The position numbers were made by a program, and so were the translations under genes. From an uncultured Microthrixaceae bacterium (GTDB taxonomy: Bacteria > Actinomycetota > Acidimicrobiia > Acidimicrobiales > VFJN01), in the NCBI GenBank assembly GCA_963721695.1, contig CAVRKU010000004.1, forward strand, positions 10,927 to 74,926: DNA of 64,000 nt, given 5' to 3'. Positions within the stretch are counted from its first letter, which is position 1; each line of letters begins with the position of its first letter. The notes below the pieces were generated by a model. That model was not told the DNA's origin. It did not search any database and worked only from the letters and a program-made list of their open reading frames with translations. Below are positions 26,715 through 31,304 of the stretch, piece by piece.

Positions 26715-28372
<1,658 letters not shown>

Positions 28373-28396
28373 CCCAGGCCCACGCCTGCAGATGTC

Positions 28397-28429
28397 CGGA
28401 AGGGCCGCCCCATGAGGGCGGCCCTTCCG
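28397..28429. terminator. 13-bp GC-rich hairpin between the convergent groEL and rsr genes (candidate bidirectional terminator)
   Basis: CGGAAGGGCCGCC-CCATGAG-GGCGGCCCTTCCG. There is no clear U tract. Confidence 0.55.
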
Positions 28430-28442
28430 CGTATCCGCGCGA

Positions 28443-30036
28443 TCAGAACGGCCACTGGGCGTTGCGGCCGCCCTCCAGCACCTCCATGGCCTTGAAGGTG
28501 GCATCGGTGAAGCCGCCCAGCGTGTACCGGCCCCGCTCGCCGGCCGGCAGCGCCGACGGCCGGTAGCCGCCCAGGTCGAAGGTGTAGATCAGCGGTACGT
28601 GCTCGAGCCGGACCTGACCGGCGTCGTGCTGCTGGTCGTCGGTGAAGAGCACCACCCGTCGATGGCGATCAGGGTCGTACCACTGCTTGATGGCCGTGTG
28701 GCCGAACGTGGCGTGACCGACCGAGCCCACCGACCGCACGATCTGCTCCACCTCGCGCGAGCACCGATGCGCCGCGCCGGCGCCGCATCCGCGCGTTCGT
28801 CTGGCCGTAGACCACGACATCGACGGCCGCGGCACGGTGTGCCGTCGCCATCGGCCATGACCGCGGCGATCTCGACCCGCTGCAGCGTGGATCGACCGGA
28901 CACCGCCGCCTGCATCGAGCCCGAGGTGTCGATGACGACGAGGGTGCCATCGAGGGCAGGGATGTTGGCCACGGTGTAGCTCGAGCGTCCGGCCGAGCGC
29001 CCGCTTCCAGGCGTCCGACGGCGCGTGCTTGTACGCCGCCCACACCTGGTACGGGAACAGGCGCGCCTTGGCCACCTCGTCGGCGTCGGTGATCTTCGCG
29101 ATGACCGCATCGATCGACGGCTCCGAGATGCCGGCCTGGTCGAAGTTGCGCAGGTTGCGGACCAGCGCCATCACGCCCATCGACGGGATGACGGCCTCCC
29201 ACGCCTCCGCGTCCATGCCACCCGGCAGCCAGCCCGACAGCCGCTCCCAGGAGACGCCCGCGTCGGCCAGGGCCGCCGGGCCCCGGTCGCGCAGGAGCTG
29301 GCGACGGTCACCCTCGGGCACGGTGGCCAGCGTCGGCCGCCGCGGCGAGGACCGGCAGCAGCGCGGGATCGGCCACGGCATCGTCGTGGTGGCGACGGTC
29401 GAGCAGCCACTTGAAGAGCGCCGACTGGCGCTCGTCGCGGGGCGACGGGTGGGTGAGCTCGACCACGTCGGCCATGCGGATCTGGCGCGACAGCCCGTCG
29501 TACCGCAGCACCGCACGCTCCGTGTAGAGGCGTCGGACGGCGTCAGCGATGCCGCGCTTGACTGGCATCGGGCACGTTCCGACCGTGCGTGGTCAGCCAG
29601 TAGCCGAGCAGCTCGGCCGGCTCGTCGGGCCGCTGGAGGGCCCGGGCGACCACCGACCGACCACCGACCCCTCCGGCCGCCACGTACTCGGCCGCCATCA
29701 CGACGGCGGCCGAACGCATGAGCAGGGTCGAGCGCAGGTACTGGATGAGGCCGACCTGGCCGGCCTCGAGGTCACGACCGGCGAGGAACGCTGGGTTCGC
29801 GGCGGCCACCTCGTGGACGAGCTGCGACGAAGCGGGCGTCGCGGTCCGCGGCGCGCTCGTAGAAGGTGTCCTCGCCGACCATGTTCGTGGCCGCGAGCAG
29901 GAACAGCTCCGACTCGGGATCGCGCGCGAAGGCCTCGCCGCCCTCGTGGGTGCGGAGGCGATCGCGCACGCGTGCGGATCGGTGCGGTCAGGTTGGGGCG
30001 GAGCGGGCGCCGCTTGGTGCCCGAGAACTTGGCCAT
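28443..30036 (-). CDS. rsr: Ro60-related protein Rsr (TROVE plus vWA domains); about 7-8 apparent frameshifts
   Basis: Fragments across three frames: [11 protein letters not shown]; [18 protein letters not shown]; [12 protein letters not shown]; [22 protein letters not shown]; [13 protein letters not shown]; the vWA MIDAS motif [11 protein letters not shown]; and the C-terminus LFTDDQQHD...[13 protein letters not shown] lies 5 nt upstream of the ATG. Confidence 0.85.
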
Positions 30037-30082
30037 GACGCCCTCCTCTCTTATCTCGGTTGATGGGGTGGTTGGGAGTGGG

Positions 30083-30182
30083 TCCGGTCAGGGAACACGG
30101 TGGACGGGCGGTGCCGAGTCGAACGGCAGGCCCGAAGGTCTCTTCGCCAGAGAAGGAAGCCCGTCCTTCGCAGCTGACCGGA
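30083..30182 (-). ncRNA. Y-RNA-like RNA 2 (paralog of Y1; carries a T-arm but no D-arm or acceptor hairpin)
   Basis: 9-bp terminal stem (30083-30091 with 30174-30182). Asymmetric loop CUGCGAA / ACCGUGUUCC. 8-bp helix GGACGGGC/GCCCGUCC (30159-30166 with 30102-30109). UUCCUUCUCU tract. T-arm UGCCG-UUCGACU-CGGCA. Confidence 0.6.
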
Positions 30183-30188
30183 AGGGGA

Positions 30189-30326
30189 AGTTCGGCCTGG
30201 GAACCAAGGCGGCAGGGGTGTGCATGTGCTCTACCGATTGAGCTACGTCCACCGAGTGGACGACGGGACTCGAACCCGCAACCCCATGATCAGAAGGAAC
30301 CCCTGCCTGCGCAGCAGGCCGATCTA
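30189..30326 (-). ncRNA. YrlA-like Y RNA 1 with a circularly permuted tRNA-like domain
   Basis: 8-bp terminal stem (30192-30199 with 30315-30322). Loop CUGCGCA / GCCUUGGUUCC. 8-bp helix GGCAGGGG/CCCCUGCC. Then UUCCUUCUGAU, T-arm GCGGG-UUCGAGU-CCCGU, closed acceptor-like hairpin CGUCCAC-UCG-GUGGACG, and D-arm GCUC-AAUCGGUA-GAGC. Lies about 150 nt upstream of rsr on the same strand. Confidence 0.75.
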
Positions 30327-30344
30327 ACGAGCAGAGACATCGGA

Positions 30345-30419
30345 TGGCTGCGAGGCCAGGGATCGAACCCGGTTCTCCTGGTTCAGAGCCAGGCGTGGTG
30401 CCAGTTCCACCACCTCGCA
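30345..30419 (-). tRNA. tRNA-Gln (anticodon CUG), CCA encoded
   Basis: Acceptor UGCGAGG/CCUCGCA (U1-A72), G73, D-arm GUGG-AACUGGCA-CCAC, anticodon loop CUCUGAA, T-arm CCGGG-UUCGAUC-CCUGG. Confidence 0.85.
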
Positions 30420-30423
30420 TCGT

Positions 30424-30498
30424 TGGTCTGGACGGGAGGACTCGAACCTCCAACCCCCGGCTCCCGAAGCCGGTGCGCTCCCGTTGCGCCACGTCCAG
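30424..30498 (-). tRNA. tRNA-Pro (anticodon CGG), CCA encoded
   Basis: Acceptor CUGGACG/CGUCCAG (C1-G72), A73, anticodon loop UUCGGGA, T-arm GGAGG-UUCGAGU-CCUCC. Confidence 0.85.
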
Positions 30499-30501
30499 TG
30501 C

Positions 30502-30579
30502 TGGTACTGACGGTCGGAGTCGAACCCGACACTGACGGCGGTCTGAGCGCCGTGCCTCTTCCAGTTGGGCTACGTCAGC
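30502..30579 (-). tRNA. tRNA with Leu anticodon CAG but a class-I (5-nt variable loop) architecture, CCA encoded
   Basis: Acceptor GCUGACG/CGUCAGU (G1-U72), A73, anticodon arm CGGCG-CUCAGAC-CGCCG. The T-loop is 8 nt (GUCGG-GUUCGACU-CCGAC) or contains a 1-nt indel. Confidence 0.6.
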
Positions 30580-30583
30580 GATG

Positions 30584-30658
30584 TGGTGGACCGGGCGGGA
30601 TTCGAACCCGCAACCTTCTCCGTGCAAGGGAGCTGCGCTTCCAGTTGCGCCACGGCCC
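30584..30658 (-). tRNA. tRNA-Ala (anticodon UGC), CCA encoded; irregular acceptor register
   Basis: Anticodon loop CUUGCAC, D-arm GCGC-AACUGGAA-GCGC, T-arm GCGGG-UUCGAAU-CCCGC, A73. G1-C72, G2-C71 and G3-U70 form only if the 5' end is at 30658, which leaves one linker nt short. Confidence 0.65.
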
Positions 30659-30659
30659 G

Positions 30660-30730
30660 TGGTCGCGGGAGCGGGGATCGAACCCGCCGGGCGGGGCTTA
30701 TGAGGCCTCGCTGATCCCAGATCTCCCGCA
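30660..30730 (-). tRNA. tRNA with anticodon CAU (Met, or Ile2/initiator undetermined) and a truncated D-arm, CCA encoded
   Basis: Anticodon loop CUCAUAA, T-arm GCGGG-UUCGAUC-CCCGC, acceptor UGCGGGA/UCCCGCG (U1-G72). Only 13 nt (GAUCUGGGAUCAG) lie between the acceptor and anticodon stems. Confidence 0.55.
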
Positions 30731-30733
30731 GTG

Positions 30734-30810
30734 TGGAGTGACCGACCGGACTCGAACCGGCTTCCTCCGGGGCCACGTCCCGGCGTGTCGTCCACTTCAA
30801 CCTCGGCCAC
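30734..30810 (-). tRNA. tRNA-His-like (anticodon GUG), CCA encoded, with C33
   Basis: Acceptor GUGGCCG, anticodon arm CCGGG-ACGUGGC-CCCGG, T-arm GCCGG-UUCGAGU-CCGGU. A8 replaces U8, position 73 is U, and no G-1 is encoded. Confidence 0.55.
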
Positions 30811-30812
30811 AG

Positions 30813-30884
30813 TCGACGAGGAGGGATTCGAACCCCCGGCATCCTCCGTGTGAGAGAGGCGGTCTGCCACTGACCTACTCGTCG
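30813..30884 (-). tRNA. tRNA-Val (anticodon CAC), no encoded CCA
   Basis: Acceptor CGACGAG/CUCGUCG, U8 A9, D-arm GGUC-AGUGGCA-GACC, anticodon arm CCUCU-CUCACAC-GGAGG, T-arm GGGGG-UUCGAAU-CCCUC. Confidence 0.8.
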
Positions 30885-30892
30885 TGGTGTCG

Positions 30893-30966
30893 TAGGGCGT
30901 CGTGGAGTCGAACCACGTCGATCCCGCGATATCAGCGCGGTGCCTTCACCGTCTGGCTCACGCCCG
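30893..30966 (-). tRNA. tRNA-Ile-like (anticodon GAU), no adjacent CCA
   Basis: Anticodon arm CCGCG-CUGAUAU-CGCGG and T-arm CGUGG-UUCGACU-CCACG are both perfect. Deviations: 6-bp acceptor plus a C1/U72 mismatch, G8, a 3-bp D stem and a 6-nt variable loop. Confidence 0.55.
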
Positions 30967-31107
30967 CTGCGTGTCGTGGTCCCGGGCGTGCTCGAACCTC
31001 CTCCTGCCGGGTTTCGATCGGCCGCTCCACCGTCAGAGCTTCAGCGAGGTTCCGCCTGCGGGGTCGGCTGCGGGGAGAACCCGCTGCGTCTCGGATCGAG
31101 TTGGCGT
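30967..31107 (-). other. Irregular tRNA-derived segment that does not fold into a canonical cloverleaf
   Basis: On the minus-strand RNA: D-arm-like GCUC-UGACGGUG-GAGC; arm GCCGA-UCGAAAC-CCGGC (GAA triplet); UUCGAGC T-loop-like motif without a pairing partner; GCGGG-UUCUC-CCCGC (the neighbouring T-arm minus 2 nt). A possible 12-bp helix pairs 30975-30986 with 31113-31124. Confidence 0.35.
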
Positions 31108-31174
31108 CCTCGCCCGGGACCACGCGACCAGGGGCGGTCGGAAGGAAGGAACCCTGGTCTCGCATCGGACGAAG
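31108..31174 (-). ncRNA. Y-RNA-like module 3 (minimal paralog)
   Basis: Outer stem CUUCGUCC/GGGCGAGG (two G-U pairs), loop AUGCGAGA / GCGUGGUCCC, and 8-bp helix GACCAGGG/CCCUGGUC capped by UUCCUUCCUUCCGACCGC. The architecture and motifs match Y1 and Y2. Confidence 0.45.
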
Positions 31175-31177
31175 CAG

Positions 31178-31250
31178 AGCCGGTTGCGGGGATCGAACCC
31201 GCTGCCTCTCGGGTGGGGCCGAGCGTCCTTGCCTTCAGGACCTCACCGGC
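31178..31250 (-). tRNA. tRNA-Gly-like (probable anticodon CCC) with a 6-nt anticodon loop, no CCA
   Basis: Acceptor GCCGGUG (6 bp plus one mismatch), U73, D-arm GUCC-UGAAGGCAA-GGAC, anticodon arm CUCGG-CCCCAC-CCGAG, T-arm GCGGG-UUCGAUC-CCCGC. Confidence 0.5.
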
Positions 31251-31255
31251 GTGGT

Positions 31256-31291
31256 GGTGGTCCCGCCCGGCCTGTTCCGGGCGGGACCACC
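31256..31291 (-). other. 15-bp perfect GC-rich hairpin between the rtcB stop and the first downstream tRNA
   Basis: GGUGGUCCCGCCCGG-AACAGG-CCGGGCGGGACCACC. It lies 14 nt after the rtcB stop and 5 nt before the tRNA 5' end, with no U tract. Confidence 0.6.
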
Positions 31292-31304
31292 TCATCGGCT
31301 GCGC

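What the first reader, a model, noticed from the sequence alone, without database searches (positions are those of the whole stretch)
30083..30326. Two tandem paralogous Y-RNA-like genes upstream of rsr, one with a full permuted tRNA-like domain
Y1 (30189-30326) and Y2 (30083-30182) share one architecture: a terminal stem, an asymmetric internal loop (CUGCGCA or CUGCGAA opposite GCCUUGGUUCC or ACCGUGUUCC), an 8-bp G-rich helix, and a UUCCUUC pyrimidine tract. In Y1 the distal domain reads T-arm, then an acceptor-like stem closed by a UCG loop, then a D-arm. That is the order expected for a tRNA mimic whose ends lie in the Ro-binding stem, as reported for YrlA. Y2 keeps only the T-arm. The conserved loop/helix/UUCCUUC signature is a candidate Rsr-binding or partner-binding determinant. 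I do not recognise it from metazoan Y RNA consensus.
Basis: seen in the sequence. Interest (0 to 1): 0.8.

Follow-up and report, generated by a model that had tools for sequence, protein, structure and literature searches.

The report
Bacterial Y RNAs beside Ro gene
These are two small structured RNA genes of an already described bacterial type (YrlA-like and YrlB-like Y RNAs, partners of the Ro/Rsr RNA-quality-control protein), found here in an uncultured actinobacterium, so they are real but belong to a known class.

Summary
On the minus strand, between a tRNA array and a TROVE/Rsr gene, lie two tandem structured RNAs, Y1 at 30326-30189 and Y2 at 30182-30083. They share one layout: terminal stem, asymmetric loop, 8-bp helix, then UUCCUUC. 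Y1 carries a permuted tRNA-like domain and matches Rfam YrlA at E 4.9e-8, below the curated cut-off. Y2 carries only a T arm.

Both are conserved upstream of rsr in about 20 related Acidimicrobiia-like MAGs. The Y1 type occurs in 64 of the 81 sequences searched, and the Y2 type was also seen in other Actinomycetota. Every helix covaries, as does the tRNA Levitt pair (U-A 46, C-G 39).

The arrangement matches what Chen et al. 2014 showed for Mycobacterium smegmatis: YrlA, then YrlB with a T arm, then rsr, all cut from one precursor. UGCG(C/A)AG is a variant of the GNCGAAN0-1G Rsr-binding motif. UUCCUUC is a clade variant of actinomycete UACUUC, which contains the conserved YUAY.

Extras: a third module (31174-31108), a 13-21-gene tRNA array with rtcB in the same locus, and many frameshifts that are probably assembly errors.

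Verdict: a new member of a known kind, of moderate interest.

The parts
30189..30326 (-). Y1: YrlA-type Y RNA. It has a terminal stem, an Rsr-motif loop, 8-bp helix P2, UUCCUUC, an AC-like stem, a 5-nt variable loop, a T arm, a closed acceptor-like stem, UA, and a D arm.
   Evidence: Rfam YrlA hit at 42.2 bits, E 4.9e-8. Model R2 scores 141.7 bits. Covariation across 90 homologues. Coordinates.
30308..30314 (-). Y1 5' loop strand CUGCGCA. It is a variant of the GNCGAAN0-1G Rsr-binding motif.
   Evidence: UGCGCAG occurs in 67 of 90 homologues and UGCGAAG in 15 of 90. The motif is defined in PMC4201824.
30293..30299 (-). Y1 UUCCUUC tract directly 3' of helix P2. It is the clade variant of actinomycete UACUUC (YUAY plus UUC).
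   Evidence: Column counts. UACUUC in 66 of 90 and UCCUUC in 19 of 90.
30228..30284 (-). Y1 permuted tRNA-like core: variable loop GGGUU, T arm, 7-bp acceptor-like stem with UCG loop, UA, D arm. The Levitt pair is U30280:A30238.
   Evidence: Levitt pair counts are U-A 46, C-G 39, unpaired 2.
30083..30182 (-). Y2: YrlB-type Y RNA. It has the same Rsr module as Y1; its distal part is a UGG-containing stretch, a variable hairpin and a T arm (30128-30112).
   Evidence: Model R1 scores 104.4 bits. Covariation. The M. smegmatis YrlB precedent is.
31108..31174 (-). Y3: a third Rsr-module RNA. It is a long hairpin (9-bp stem, AUGCGA, 8-bp helix, UUCCUUC) with an 18-nt pyrimidine-rich loop and no tRNA-like part.
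   Evidence: R1 hit at 21.4 bits, E 4.6e-4 locally. Orthologous copies lie between tRNA-Thr and tRNA-Phe in 8 related loci.
28443..30036 (-). rsr (Ro60/TROVE plus vWA). It is read in at least 7 frame pieces in this window.
   Evidence: Pfam TROVE hit. The stitched protein is 93% identical to P0001. Seven 1-nt insertions relative to L081.
30345..31250 (-). tRNA array B, directly upstream of Y1. It holds about 10 tRNA or tRNA-like genes and encloses Y3.
31305..32470 (-). rtcB RNA ligase gene, frameshifted in this window.
   Evidence: Pfam RtcB hits on two ORF pieces.
32508..32976 (-). tRNA array A, with 6 tRNAs.

Best explanation
Y1 and Y2 are bacterial Y RNAs of the YrlA and YrlB types, the non-coding RNA partners of the Ro60 orthologue Rsr encoded just downstream.

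Most likely mechanism, all inferred:
1. The tRNA array, Y1, Y2 and rsr are transcribed as one precursor.
2. tRNA-processing nucleases cut the precursor at the bases of the terminal stems.
3. Each Y RNA binds Rsr through the bulged stem whose 5' strand reads UGCG(C/A)AG.
4. The distal domain points away from Rsr and recruits or blocks a partner. In Y1 this domain is an L-shaped tRNA mimic. In Y2 it is a T arm, possibly docked on a UGG stretch. In Y3 it is a pyrimidine-rich loop. Different Y RNAs would thus give Rsr different partners. PNPase is the known partner in Deinococcus and Salmonella. A tRNA-elbow-binding protein has been proposed for YrlA.

Shown here: the sequences, the conserved structure with covariation, the tRNA-like tertiary pair, and the synteny with rsr.

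Inferred from the M. smegmatis, Salmonella and Deinococcus work: Rsr binding, processing from one precursor, and the tethering role.
For: - Rfam YrlA matches Y1 at E 4.9e-8 across the whole model.
- A TROVE gene starts 46 nt downstream on the same strand.
- 90 YrlA-type hits at E < 1e-10 occur in 64 of 81 sources. All are on the rsr strand and, with one exception, within about 1 kb upstream of rsr.
- On those 90, 92.4% of cells are paired and 32 of 36 pairs are compensatory. The covariation score is 0.58, against 0.16 when shuffled and at most 0.15 when slid.
- The Levitt pair reads U-A 46 and C-G 39.
- An AC-like stem that was not in the model scores 0.548 against 0.166 shuffled.
- The Y2 type scores 0.497 against 0.141 shuffled on a MAFFT alignment of 32 RNAs from several actinomycete genera.
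- The shared 5' module is supported.
- Published precedent: M. smegmatis YrlA and the T-arm-bearing YrlB lie 5' of rsr, are Rsr-bound and come from one precursor. D. radiodurans Yrn2, tRNA-Asp and Yrn1 are polycistronic. The GNCGAAN0-1G and YUAY motifs are defined there (PMC4201824).
- The YrlA crystal structure shows tRNA mimicry (bioRxiv 10.1101/312249).
Against: - The Rfam YrlA score of 42.2 bits is below the gathering cut-off of 69. No actinomycete homologue among the 15 loci scanned reached it.
- The motif departs from GNCGAAN0-1G: U replaces the first G, and C replaces the first A in Y1.
- There are no expression, end-mapping or binding data.
- rsr is out of frame in this window. If that is real decay, the RNAs could be relics.
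- The closest relative, L081, lacks Y1, so Y1 is dispensable in at least one lineage.
- No sigma-70-type promoter and no terminator other than a match inside Y1 itself were found. This scan is uninformative for high-GC actinobacteria.
Confidence: 0.82

Rival explanations
1. Y2, and perhaps Y1, acts mainly in cis as a structured leader of the rsr mRNA. It could be an autoregulatory Rsr-binding site or a processing or stability element, rather than a free small RNA.
For: Y2 ends 46 nt before the rsr start codon, with only a ribosome-binding site between them. The genes are packed too tightly for separate promoters, and no promoter or terminator separates them.
Against: The same module occurs as Y3 about 1.1 kb upstream, between tRNAs and far from the rsr start. 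In many actinomycetes, 2-3 YrlA-type copies sit at varying distances from rsr. M. smegmatis YrlB, in the same position, accumulates as a discrete Rsr-bound RNA. The two roles do not exclude each other.
Confidence: 0.1
2. Y1 and Y2 are decayed or rearranged tRNA genes at the end of the tRNA array, with no Rsr-related role.
For: They abut a tRNA array. The T and D arms look like those of tRNAs. ARAGORN and a GenBank record call homologous Y RNAs as tRNAs.
Against: The arm order is permuted (T, closed acceptor, D). The non-tRNA terminal stem and P2 helix covary. The invariant UGCGMAG and UACUUC motifs are not tRNA features. Homologues lie upstream of rsr in genomes with no adjacent tRNA array, such as L022, L044 and L051.
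Confidence: 0.03
3. The shared module is a repeated or mobile sequence cassette that spreads within tRNA arrays. On this view its conservation reflects copying, not function.
For: There are three copies in the window. Y3 is flanked by a direct repeat of about 37 nt made of a tRNA 3' half (families D11 and D14). Copy number varies between loci. Y1 is cleanly deleted in L081.
Against: The copies differ in stem sequence while keeping their pairing, which indicates selection on structure. Model matches outside tRNA genes lie on the rsr strand upstream of rsr. There is no transposase and no terminal-repeat signature.
Confidence: 0.03

Closest known systems
YrlA (Rfam RF02553; S. Typhimurium and M. 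smegmatis; Chen et al. 2014, Wang et al. 2018)
   Same: - It is encoded next to rsr on the same strand.
- The 5' and 3' ends pair into a long stem that carries the Rsr motif.
- The distal domain is a permuted tRNA mimic (variable loop, T arm, closed acceptor stem, UA, D arm, short AC stem) with a covarying Levitt pair.
- The acceptor-like stem is 7 bp, as in M. smegmatis.
   Different: - It scores below the Rfam cut-off (42 versus 69 bits).
- The motif reads UGCGCAG, not GNCGAAN0-1G.
- UUCCUUC (actinomycete UACUUC) extends and alters YUAY.
- The 3' strand next to the terminal stem, G-(A/U)-U-C-(U/C), is conserved too.
- The V region is short in this window.
- It lies upstream of rsr, as in M. 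smegmatis. In Salmonella the operon name rsr-yrlBA-rtcBA (from memory, not checked here) places it downstream.
YrlB of M. smegmatis (Chen et al. 2014)
   Same: Y2 lies between YrlA and rsr. It has a possible T arm but no full tRNA-like domain, and it shares the Rsr motif. In M. smegmatis this RNA is cut from the same precursor as YrlA.
   Different: The Y2 type carries a conserved UGG after CUUC in 30 of 32 RNAs, a feature the parts of the paper read here do not mention.
D. radiodurans Yrn1 and Yrn2
   Same: Several Y RNAs lie upstream of rsr and are co-transcribed with a tRNA. [quoted passage not shown]
   Different: The Deinococcus RNAs keep both strands of the metazoan-type Ro helix, and their T and D arms have a different orientation. 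No sequence match was found.
Metazoan Y RNAs (Rfam RF00019)
   Same: The modular plan is the same: a terminal stem with a bulged Ro-binding site and a distal effector domain. Y2's CGAAGG matches the hY1 5' strand GGUCCGAAGG (recalled from memory).
   Different: Rfam gave no hit even at E up to 10. Metazoan Y RNAs have no tRNA-like domain.
Long tRNA arrays (L-arrays) associated with rtcB (Anabaena trn operon; PMC8421152)
   Same: An array of 13-21 tRNAs has rtcB embedded in it. L-arrays are reported in Actinobacteria, and their neighbourhoods are enriched in RNA-processing genes.
   Different: That paper does not mention Rsr or Y RNAs. Here the array runs straight into the Y RNAs and rsr.

Membership tests
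YrlA (bacterial Y RNA-like A) | Encoded within about 4 kb of the Ro60/TROVE gene, on the same strand | tested here: met
   Y1 ends 153 nt upstream of the rsr start codon on the minus strand. The same holds for 90 homologues.
YrlA (bacterial Y RNA-like A) | Score at or above the Rfam RF02553 gathering cut-off of 69 bits | tested here: not met
   Y1 scores 42.2 bits, E 4.9e-8, with the full model aligned. No actinomycete homologue in 15 loci reached the cut-off either. The model appears too narrow for this phylum. This is the curators' cut-off for one model, not a biological definition.
YrlA (bacterial Y RNA-like A) | Permuted tRNA-like domain in the order T arm, closed acceptor stem, D arm, with tRNA tertiary-pair signatures | tested here: met
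   The helices covary. The Levitt pair reads U-A 46 and C-G 39. The AC-like stem covaries. T-loop UUCGAGU and D-loop GG are present.
YrlA (bacterial Y RNA-like A) | GNCGAAN0-1G motif near the 5' end, within the stem formed by the two ends | tested here: inconclusive
   Y1 has UGCGCAG (5 of 7 positions) and Y2 has UGCGAAG (6 of 7) at the expected place. UGCGCAG is the majority form in 67 of 90 actinomycete homologues. The published alignment was not available for checking.
YrlA (bacterial Y RNA-like A) | Conserved YUAY at the start of the V loop | tested here: inconclusive
   The window has UUCC, with C in place of A. 66 of 90 homologues have UACUUC, which contains the UA core of YUAY and most often reads (U/C)UAC.
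YrlA (bacterial Y RNA-like A) | Bound by Rsr in vivo and modified by TruB and DusA | not testable with these tools
   This needs immunoprecipitation, EMSA and modification mapping.
YrlB (M. smegmatis type) | A second Rsr-bound RNA between YrlA and rsr, with a T arm, cut from the same precursor | tested here: inconclusive
   Position and T arm are met. Binding and processing cannot be tested, and the M. smegmatis sequence was not compared.
Metazoan-type Y RNA (Rfam RF00019) | Match to the Y_RNA covariance model, with the conserved GGUCCGA/UUGACC bulged helix | tested here: not met
   No RF00019 match at E up to 10 in 29900-30450.
Canonical tRNA | Cloverleaf in standard order with an anticodon arm | tested here: not met
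   Neither ARAGORN nor Rfam tRNA calls Y1 or Y2 in the window. The arm order is permuted.

The most novel reading that the evidence does not exclude
In this Acidimicrobiia-like clade, the Y RNAs, rsr and rtcB are built into one co-oriented, near-complete tRNA array of 13-21 tRNAs. This could be a single stress-induced translation-rescue island. The Rsr-binding cassette (stem, UGCGMAG, helix, UACUUC) would be reused with three different heads: a full tRNA mimic, a T-arm elbow and a pyrimidine loop. These heads would direct Rsr, and perhaps RtcB, to damaged tRNAs, or would act as decoys for tRNA-cleaving toxins. The invariant UACUUC would be the docking site for an unidentified partner. The V arm, which looks like an anticodon arm in 29 of 90 homologues, would be part of the mimicry.
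Probability: 0.12. Interest if true: 0.75.

Novelty: new member of a known kind. Interest (0 to 1): 0.35.

Why it matters
Bacterial Y RNAs are poorly catalogued. The Rfam YrlA model misses Y1 and every actinomycete homologue in the 15 loci scanned, and gene callers sometimes label them tRNAs.

This locus and its roughly 90 homologues give a large covarying alignment. It sharpens the definition of the Rsr-binding cassette in Actinomycetota: UGCG(C/A)AG, an 8-bp helix, UACUUC, and G-W-U-C-Y on the 3' strand. It also shows that the cassette comes with at least three kinds of distal domain.

The physical fusion of the Y RNAs and rsr with rtcB and a long tRNA array gives a concrete, testable link between Ro/Y RNA quality control and tRNA repair or supply. 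None of this changes the known picture of what Y RNAs are.

Tried and rejected
- CUUC pairing with the purines before the variable loop as a universal V-stem base: 75.5% paired but no compensatory change, and in the wrong register for many sequences. Inconclusive, so dropped.
- A covarying partner for UACUUC: mutual-information scans between the V region and the post-D linker found only the AC-like stem. None was found.
- A K-turn reading of the asymmetric loop: rejected by inspection, because the tandem G-A positions do not fit the invariant columns.
- The 2-bp G·U/C-G mini-helix inside the loop, proposed by RNAalifold: G·U holds in only 31 of 90 and there is no covariation. Not supported outside the close clade.
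- UUCCUUC as an anti-Shine-Dalgarno look-alike: the majority form UACUUC does not fit, so this was dropped.
- Y1 as a recent product of neighbouring tRNAs: not pursued, because Chen et al. report the YrlA D and T arms as nearly invariant across bacteria, which argues against a recent local origin.
- Promoter and terminator scan: no sigma-70-type promoter, and the only terminator-like match lies inside Y1 itself.
- Supplementary alignments of Chen 2014 and the Burroughs and Aravind RNA-repair paper were not held.
- The phage DNA search returned only tRNA-level similarity.

Full report
**Observation**

The finding lies on the minus strand. Reading 30326 down to 30083 gives two adjacent RNAs with one layout.

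Y1 (30326-30189):
- terminal stem UCGGCCUG/CAGGCCGA
- asymmetric loop CUGCGCA opposite GCCUUGGUUCC
- 8-bp helix GGCAGGGG/CCCCUGCC
- UUCCUUC
- a T arm (GCGGG-UUCGAGU-CCCGU)
- a 7-bp stem CGUCCAC/GUGGACG closed by UCG
- UA, then a D arm (GCUC-AAUCGGUA-GAGC)

Y2 (30182-30083):
- terminal stem UCCGGUCAG/CUGACCGGA
- loop CUGCGAA opposite ACCGUGUUCC
- helix GGACGGGC/GCCCGUCC
- UUCCUUC
- two small hairpins and a T arm (UGCCG-UUCGACU-CGGCA)

Predicted folds reproduce these helices, with z-scores of -2.27 and -3.41. The two 5' modules form a 30-nt direct repeat at 80% identity. A covariance model built from Y2 homologues hits Y1 at 49 bits.

**Surroundings**

Forty-six nucleotides after Y2, behind a GGAGG ribosome-binding site, starts a TROVE-domain gene (Pfam E 1.1e-12). 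It is broken into at least seven reading-frame pieces. The stitched protein is 93% identical to a 528-aa TROVE protein and has more than 5,000 homologues, mostly from uncultured Actinomycetota.

Relative to the closest contig (L081), the window carries seven single-base insertions in rsr. rtcB and groEL are also out of frame. General assembly error is therefore more likely than gene decay, but this cannot be settled here.

Upstream, on the same strand, lie:
- tRNA-Gln, 18 nt before Y1
- a tRNA array at 30345-31250
- rtcB at 31305-32470
- a second tRNA array at 32508-32976
- further upstream, genes for a CBS-domain protein, a dihydrouridine synthase and Maf

**Identity**

Rfam's YrlA model aligns end to end with Y1 at 42.2 bits and E 4.9e-8. 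That is below the curated cut-off of 69 bits. Y2 matches no Rfam family.

A scan of species-representative genomes with an Rsr profile returned 80 loci. BLASTN and two covariance models (R2 from 20 Y1 homologues, R1 from 25 Y2 homologues) gave these results:
- Y1 and Y2 occur together, in this order, immediately upstream of rsr in about 20 Acidimicrobiia-like MAGs whose Rsr is 70-80% identical.
- Y1-type RNAs occur upstream of rsr in Micromonospora, Nonomuraea, Planobispora, Streptomyces and others.
- In total there are 90 full-length hits at E < 1e-10 in 64 of 81 sources. All are on the rsr strand, and 25 sources have two or three copies.

None of the homologues in the 15 loci scanned reaches the Rfam cut-off, so that model is too narrow for this phylum.

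**Covariation**

On the 90-sequence alignment:
- 92.4% of cells are paired, against 69% when shuffled.
- 32 of 36 pairs show compensatory changes.
- The covariation score is 0.58, against 0.16 shuffled and at most 0.15 when the partners are slid.

That alignment was fitted to the model, which favours the structure. Two features outside the model are therefore informative.
- The tRNA Levitt pair (last variable-loop base with D-loop position 15) reads U-A in 46 sequences, C-G in 39, and is unpaired in 2.
- A 4-bp anticodon-stem-like helix just before the variable loop and just after the D arm scores 0.548 against 0.166 shuffled. In the window it is CAUG/CAUG.

For the Y2 type, a plain MAFFT alignment of 32 RNAs from the close clade plus Micromonospora, Streptomyces and uncultured Actinomycetota MAGs gives 93.5% paired, 15 of 21 pairs compensatory, and a score of 0.497 against 0.141.

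**Comparison with the literature**

Chen et al. 2014 (PMC4201824) reported the following:
- YrlA RNAs lie near rsr in more than 250 bacteria and phages, including actinobacteria.
- They have a permuted tRNA-like domain (V, T, acceptor-stem and D arms).
- They carry a 5' GNCGAAN0-1G motif thought to bind Rsr, and a conserved YUAY at the start of the V loop.
- In M. smegmatis, YrlA lies 5' of rsr, and a second Rsr-bound RNA, YrlB, lies between YrlA and rsr. YrlB has a possible T arm, and both are cut from one precursor.
- D. radiodurans Yrn2, tRNA-Asp and Yrn1 are polycistronic.

Wang et al. 2018 solved the YrlA tRNA-like domain. They noted a kink at the conserved UA and a variable V loop that can resemble class II tRNAs.

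Y1 and Y2 reproduce the M. smegmatis arrangement.

**The shared signature**

- The 5' loop strand is UGCGCAG in 67 of 90 homologues and UGCGAAG in 15 of 90. It is a one- or two-base variant of GNCGAAN0-1G.
- The tract after helix P2 is UACUUC in 66 of 90 and UCCUUC in 19 of 90, with U31, C33 and C36 invariant. This is YUAY plus UUC.

Two points are not stated in the parts of the papers I could read.
- The same UACUUC is kept in RNAs with no tRNA-like part (Y3 type), and I found no covarying partner for it.
- A 3'-strand G-(A/U)-U-C-(U/C) next to the terminal stem is also conserved.

**Mechanism**

All steps are inferred except structure and synteny.
1. Co-transcription with the tRNAs and rsr. 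The spacing is 18, 6 and 46 nt. The promoter and terminator scan was uninformative.
2. Processing at the stem bases.
3. Rsr binding through the bulged stem.
4. Presentation of different distal heads to partners, such as PNPase or a tRNA-elbow binder, as proposed for other bacteria.

In 30 of 32 Y2-type RNAs, UGG follows CUUC within 4 nt. I suggest, without any test, that it stands in for D-loop G18-G19 on the T loop.

Y1's 7-bp acceptor-like stem equals the length that makes M. smegmatis YrlA an RNase P substrate. This length is not conserved among close homologues.

**Rivals**

- A cis-acting rsr leader: possible for Y2 and not exclusive of the main reading. The existence of Y3 and the M. smegmatis data argue against it as the main role.
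- Decayed tRNAs: rejected by the permuted arm order, the covarying non-tRNA stems, and the occurrence of homologues without tRNA arrays.
- A mobile repeat: weak hints only.

**Verdict**

These are real, well-supported new members of the YrlA and YrlB classes in an uncultured actinobacterial lineage. Novelty is modest, and interest is about 0.35. The more interesting material is the context: the long tRNA array, rtcB, three Y RNAs and rsr in one locus, and the unexplained invariant UACUUC.

Noticed in passing
window 31108-31174 (minus): A third Y-RNA-like module (Y3) lies here. It has a 9-bp stem, AUGCGA, the 8-bp helix GACCAGGG/CCCUGGUC, UUCCUUC and an 18-nt pyrimidine-rich loop, with no tRNA-like part. 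Orthologous copies sit between tRNA-Thr(cgt) and tRNA-Phe in L007, L010, L011, L020, L023, L030, L042 and L047, and those copies have two plain hairpins as the distal domain.
   Followed up: partly
window 31058-31094 and 31174-31212: Y3 is flanked by a direct repeat of about 37 nt made of the 3' half of a tRNA-like gene. This looks like a local duplication or insertion.
   Followed up: partly
window 28443-30036, 31305-32470, 26721-28566: rsr, rtcB and groEL are all out of frame. rsr has seven single-base insertions relative to L081, none in homopolymers. This suggests an error-prone assembly rather than pseudogenes, but it is unresolved.
   Followed up: partly
window 30345-32976 (minus); L004, L008, L009, L010, L020, L042 and others: rsr and its Y RNAs sit at the 3' end of a co-oriented long tRNA array of 13-21 tRNAs with conserved gene order. 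In the window rtcB lies in the middle of the array; the related loci show a gap of matching size that was not checked for rtcB. This holds in the Acidimicrobiia-like loci scanned for tRNAs, but more distant actinomycetes lack the array. The association of long tRNA arrays with rtcB is published for cyanobacteria (PMC8421152). The link to Rsr and Y RNAs is not mentioned there.
   Followed up: partly
window 30663-30810, 30970-31100, 31178-31250 (minus): Extra tRNA-like genes that ARAGORN missed. They score 35.6 and 32.3 bits with Rfam tRNA, plus weaker ones. Some have odd anticodon loops, for example CCCCAC or a C at position 33.
   Followed up: partly
L081 (ENA k141_5571479), positions about 880-915: The closest relative (Rsr 93% identical) has a clean deletion of Y1 between the two halves of its terminal stem, and it lacks Y3. 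It keeps Y2, with a compensatory change in Y2's variable hairpin (AGACC/GGUCU, where the window has an A-C mismatch).
   Followed up: partly
L024 3779-3852, L038 3815-3888, L068 3824-3896, L009 3857-3946; L083 1129-1200: Y RNAs are called as tRNAs. ARAGORN reads the V arm of YrlA-type RNAs as an anticodon arm. GenBank annotates tRNA-Arg(tct) inside a YrlA-type hit in Gordonia phage VanLee. 29 of 90 YrlA-type RNAs have a 5-bp V stem with a 7-nt YYNNNRM loop.
   Followed up: partly
L082 (Streptomyces phage Alone3), L084 (phage BRock), L083 (Gordonia phage VanLee): In Alone3 and BRock the Ro-like gene sits inside a tRNA array; in VanLee only one tRNA is annotated next to it, and that call lies inside a YrlA-type hit. 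All three have two unannotated YrlA-type hits just upstream of the Ro-like gene (52-90 bits for the best).
   Followed up: partly
L036, L051, L041, L063 and other Micromonospora or Planomonospora loci, 300-700 nt upstream of rsr: Two or three full YrlA-type paralogues lie in tandem, often with T-arm-only RNAs between them. 25 of 64 sources have at least two YrlA-type copies.
   Followed up: no
window 33943-35064 (minus): A dihydrouridine synthase (Dus) gene lies about 1 kb upstream of the tRNA array on the same strand. DusA modifies YrlA in Salmonella. This may be coincidence.
   Followed up: no
15 loci scanned: Rfam RF02553 (YrlA) detects none of the actinomycete YrlA-type RNAs at its gathering cut-off, so the family model under-covers this phylum.
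   Followed up: yes
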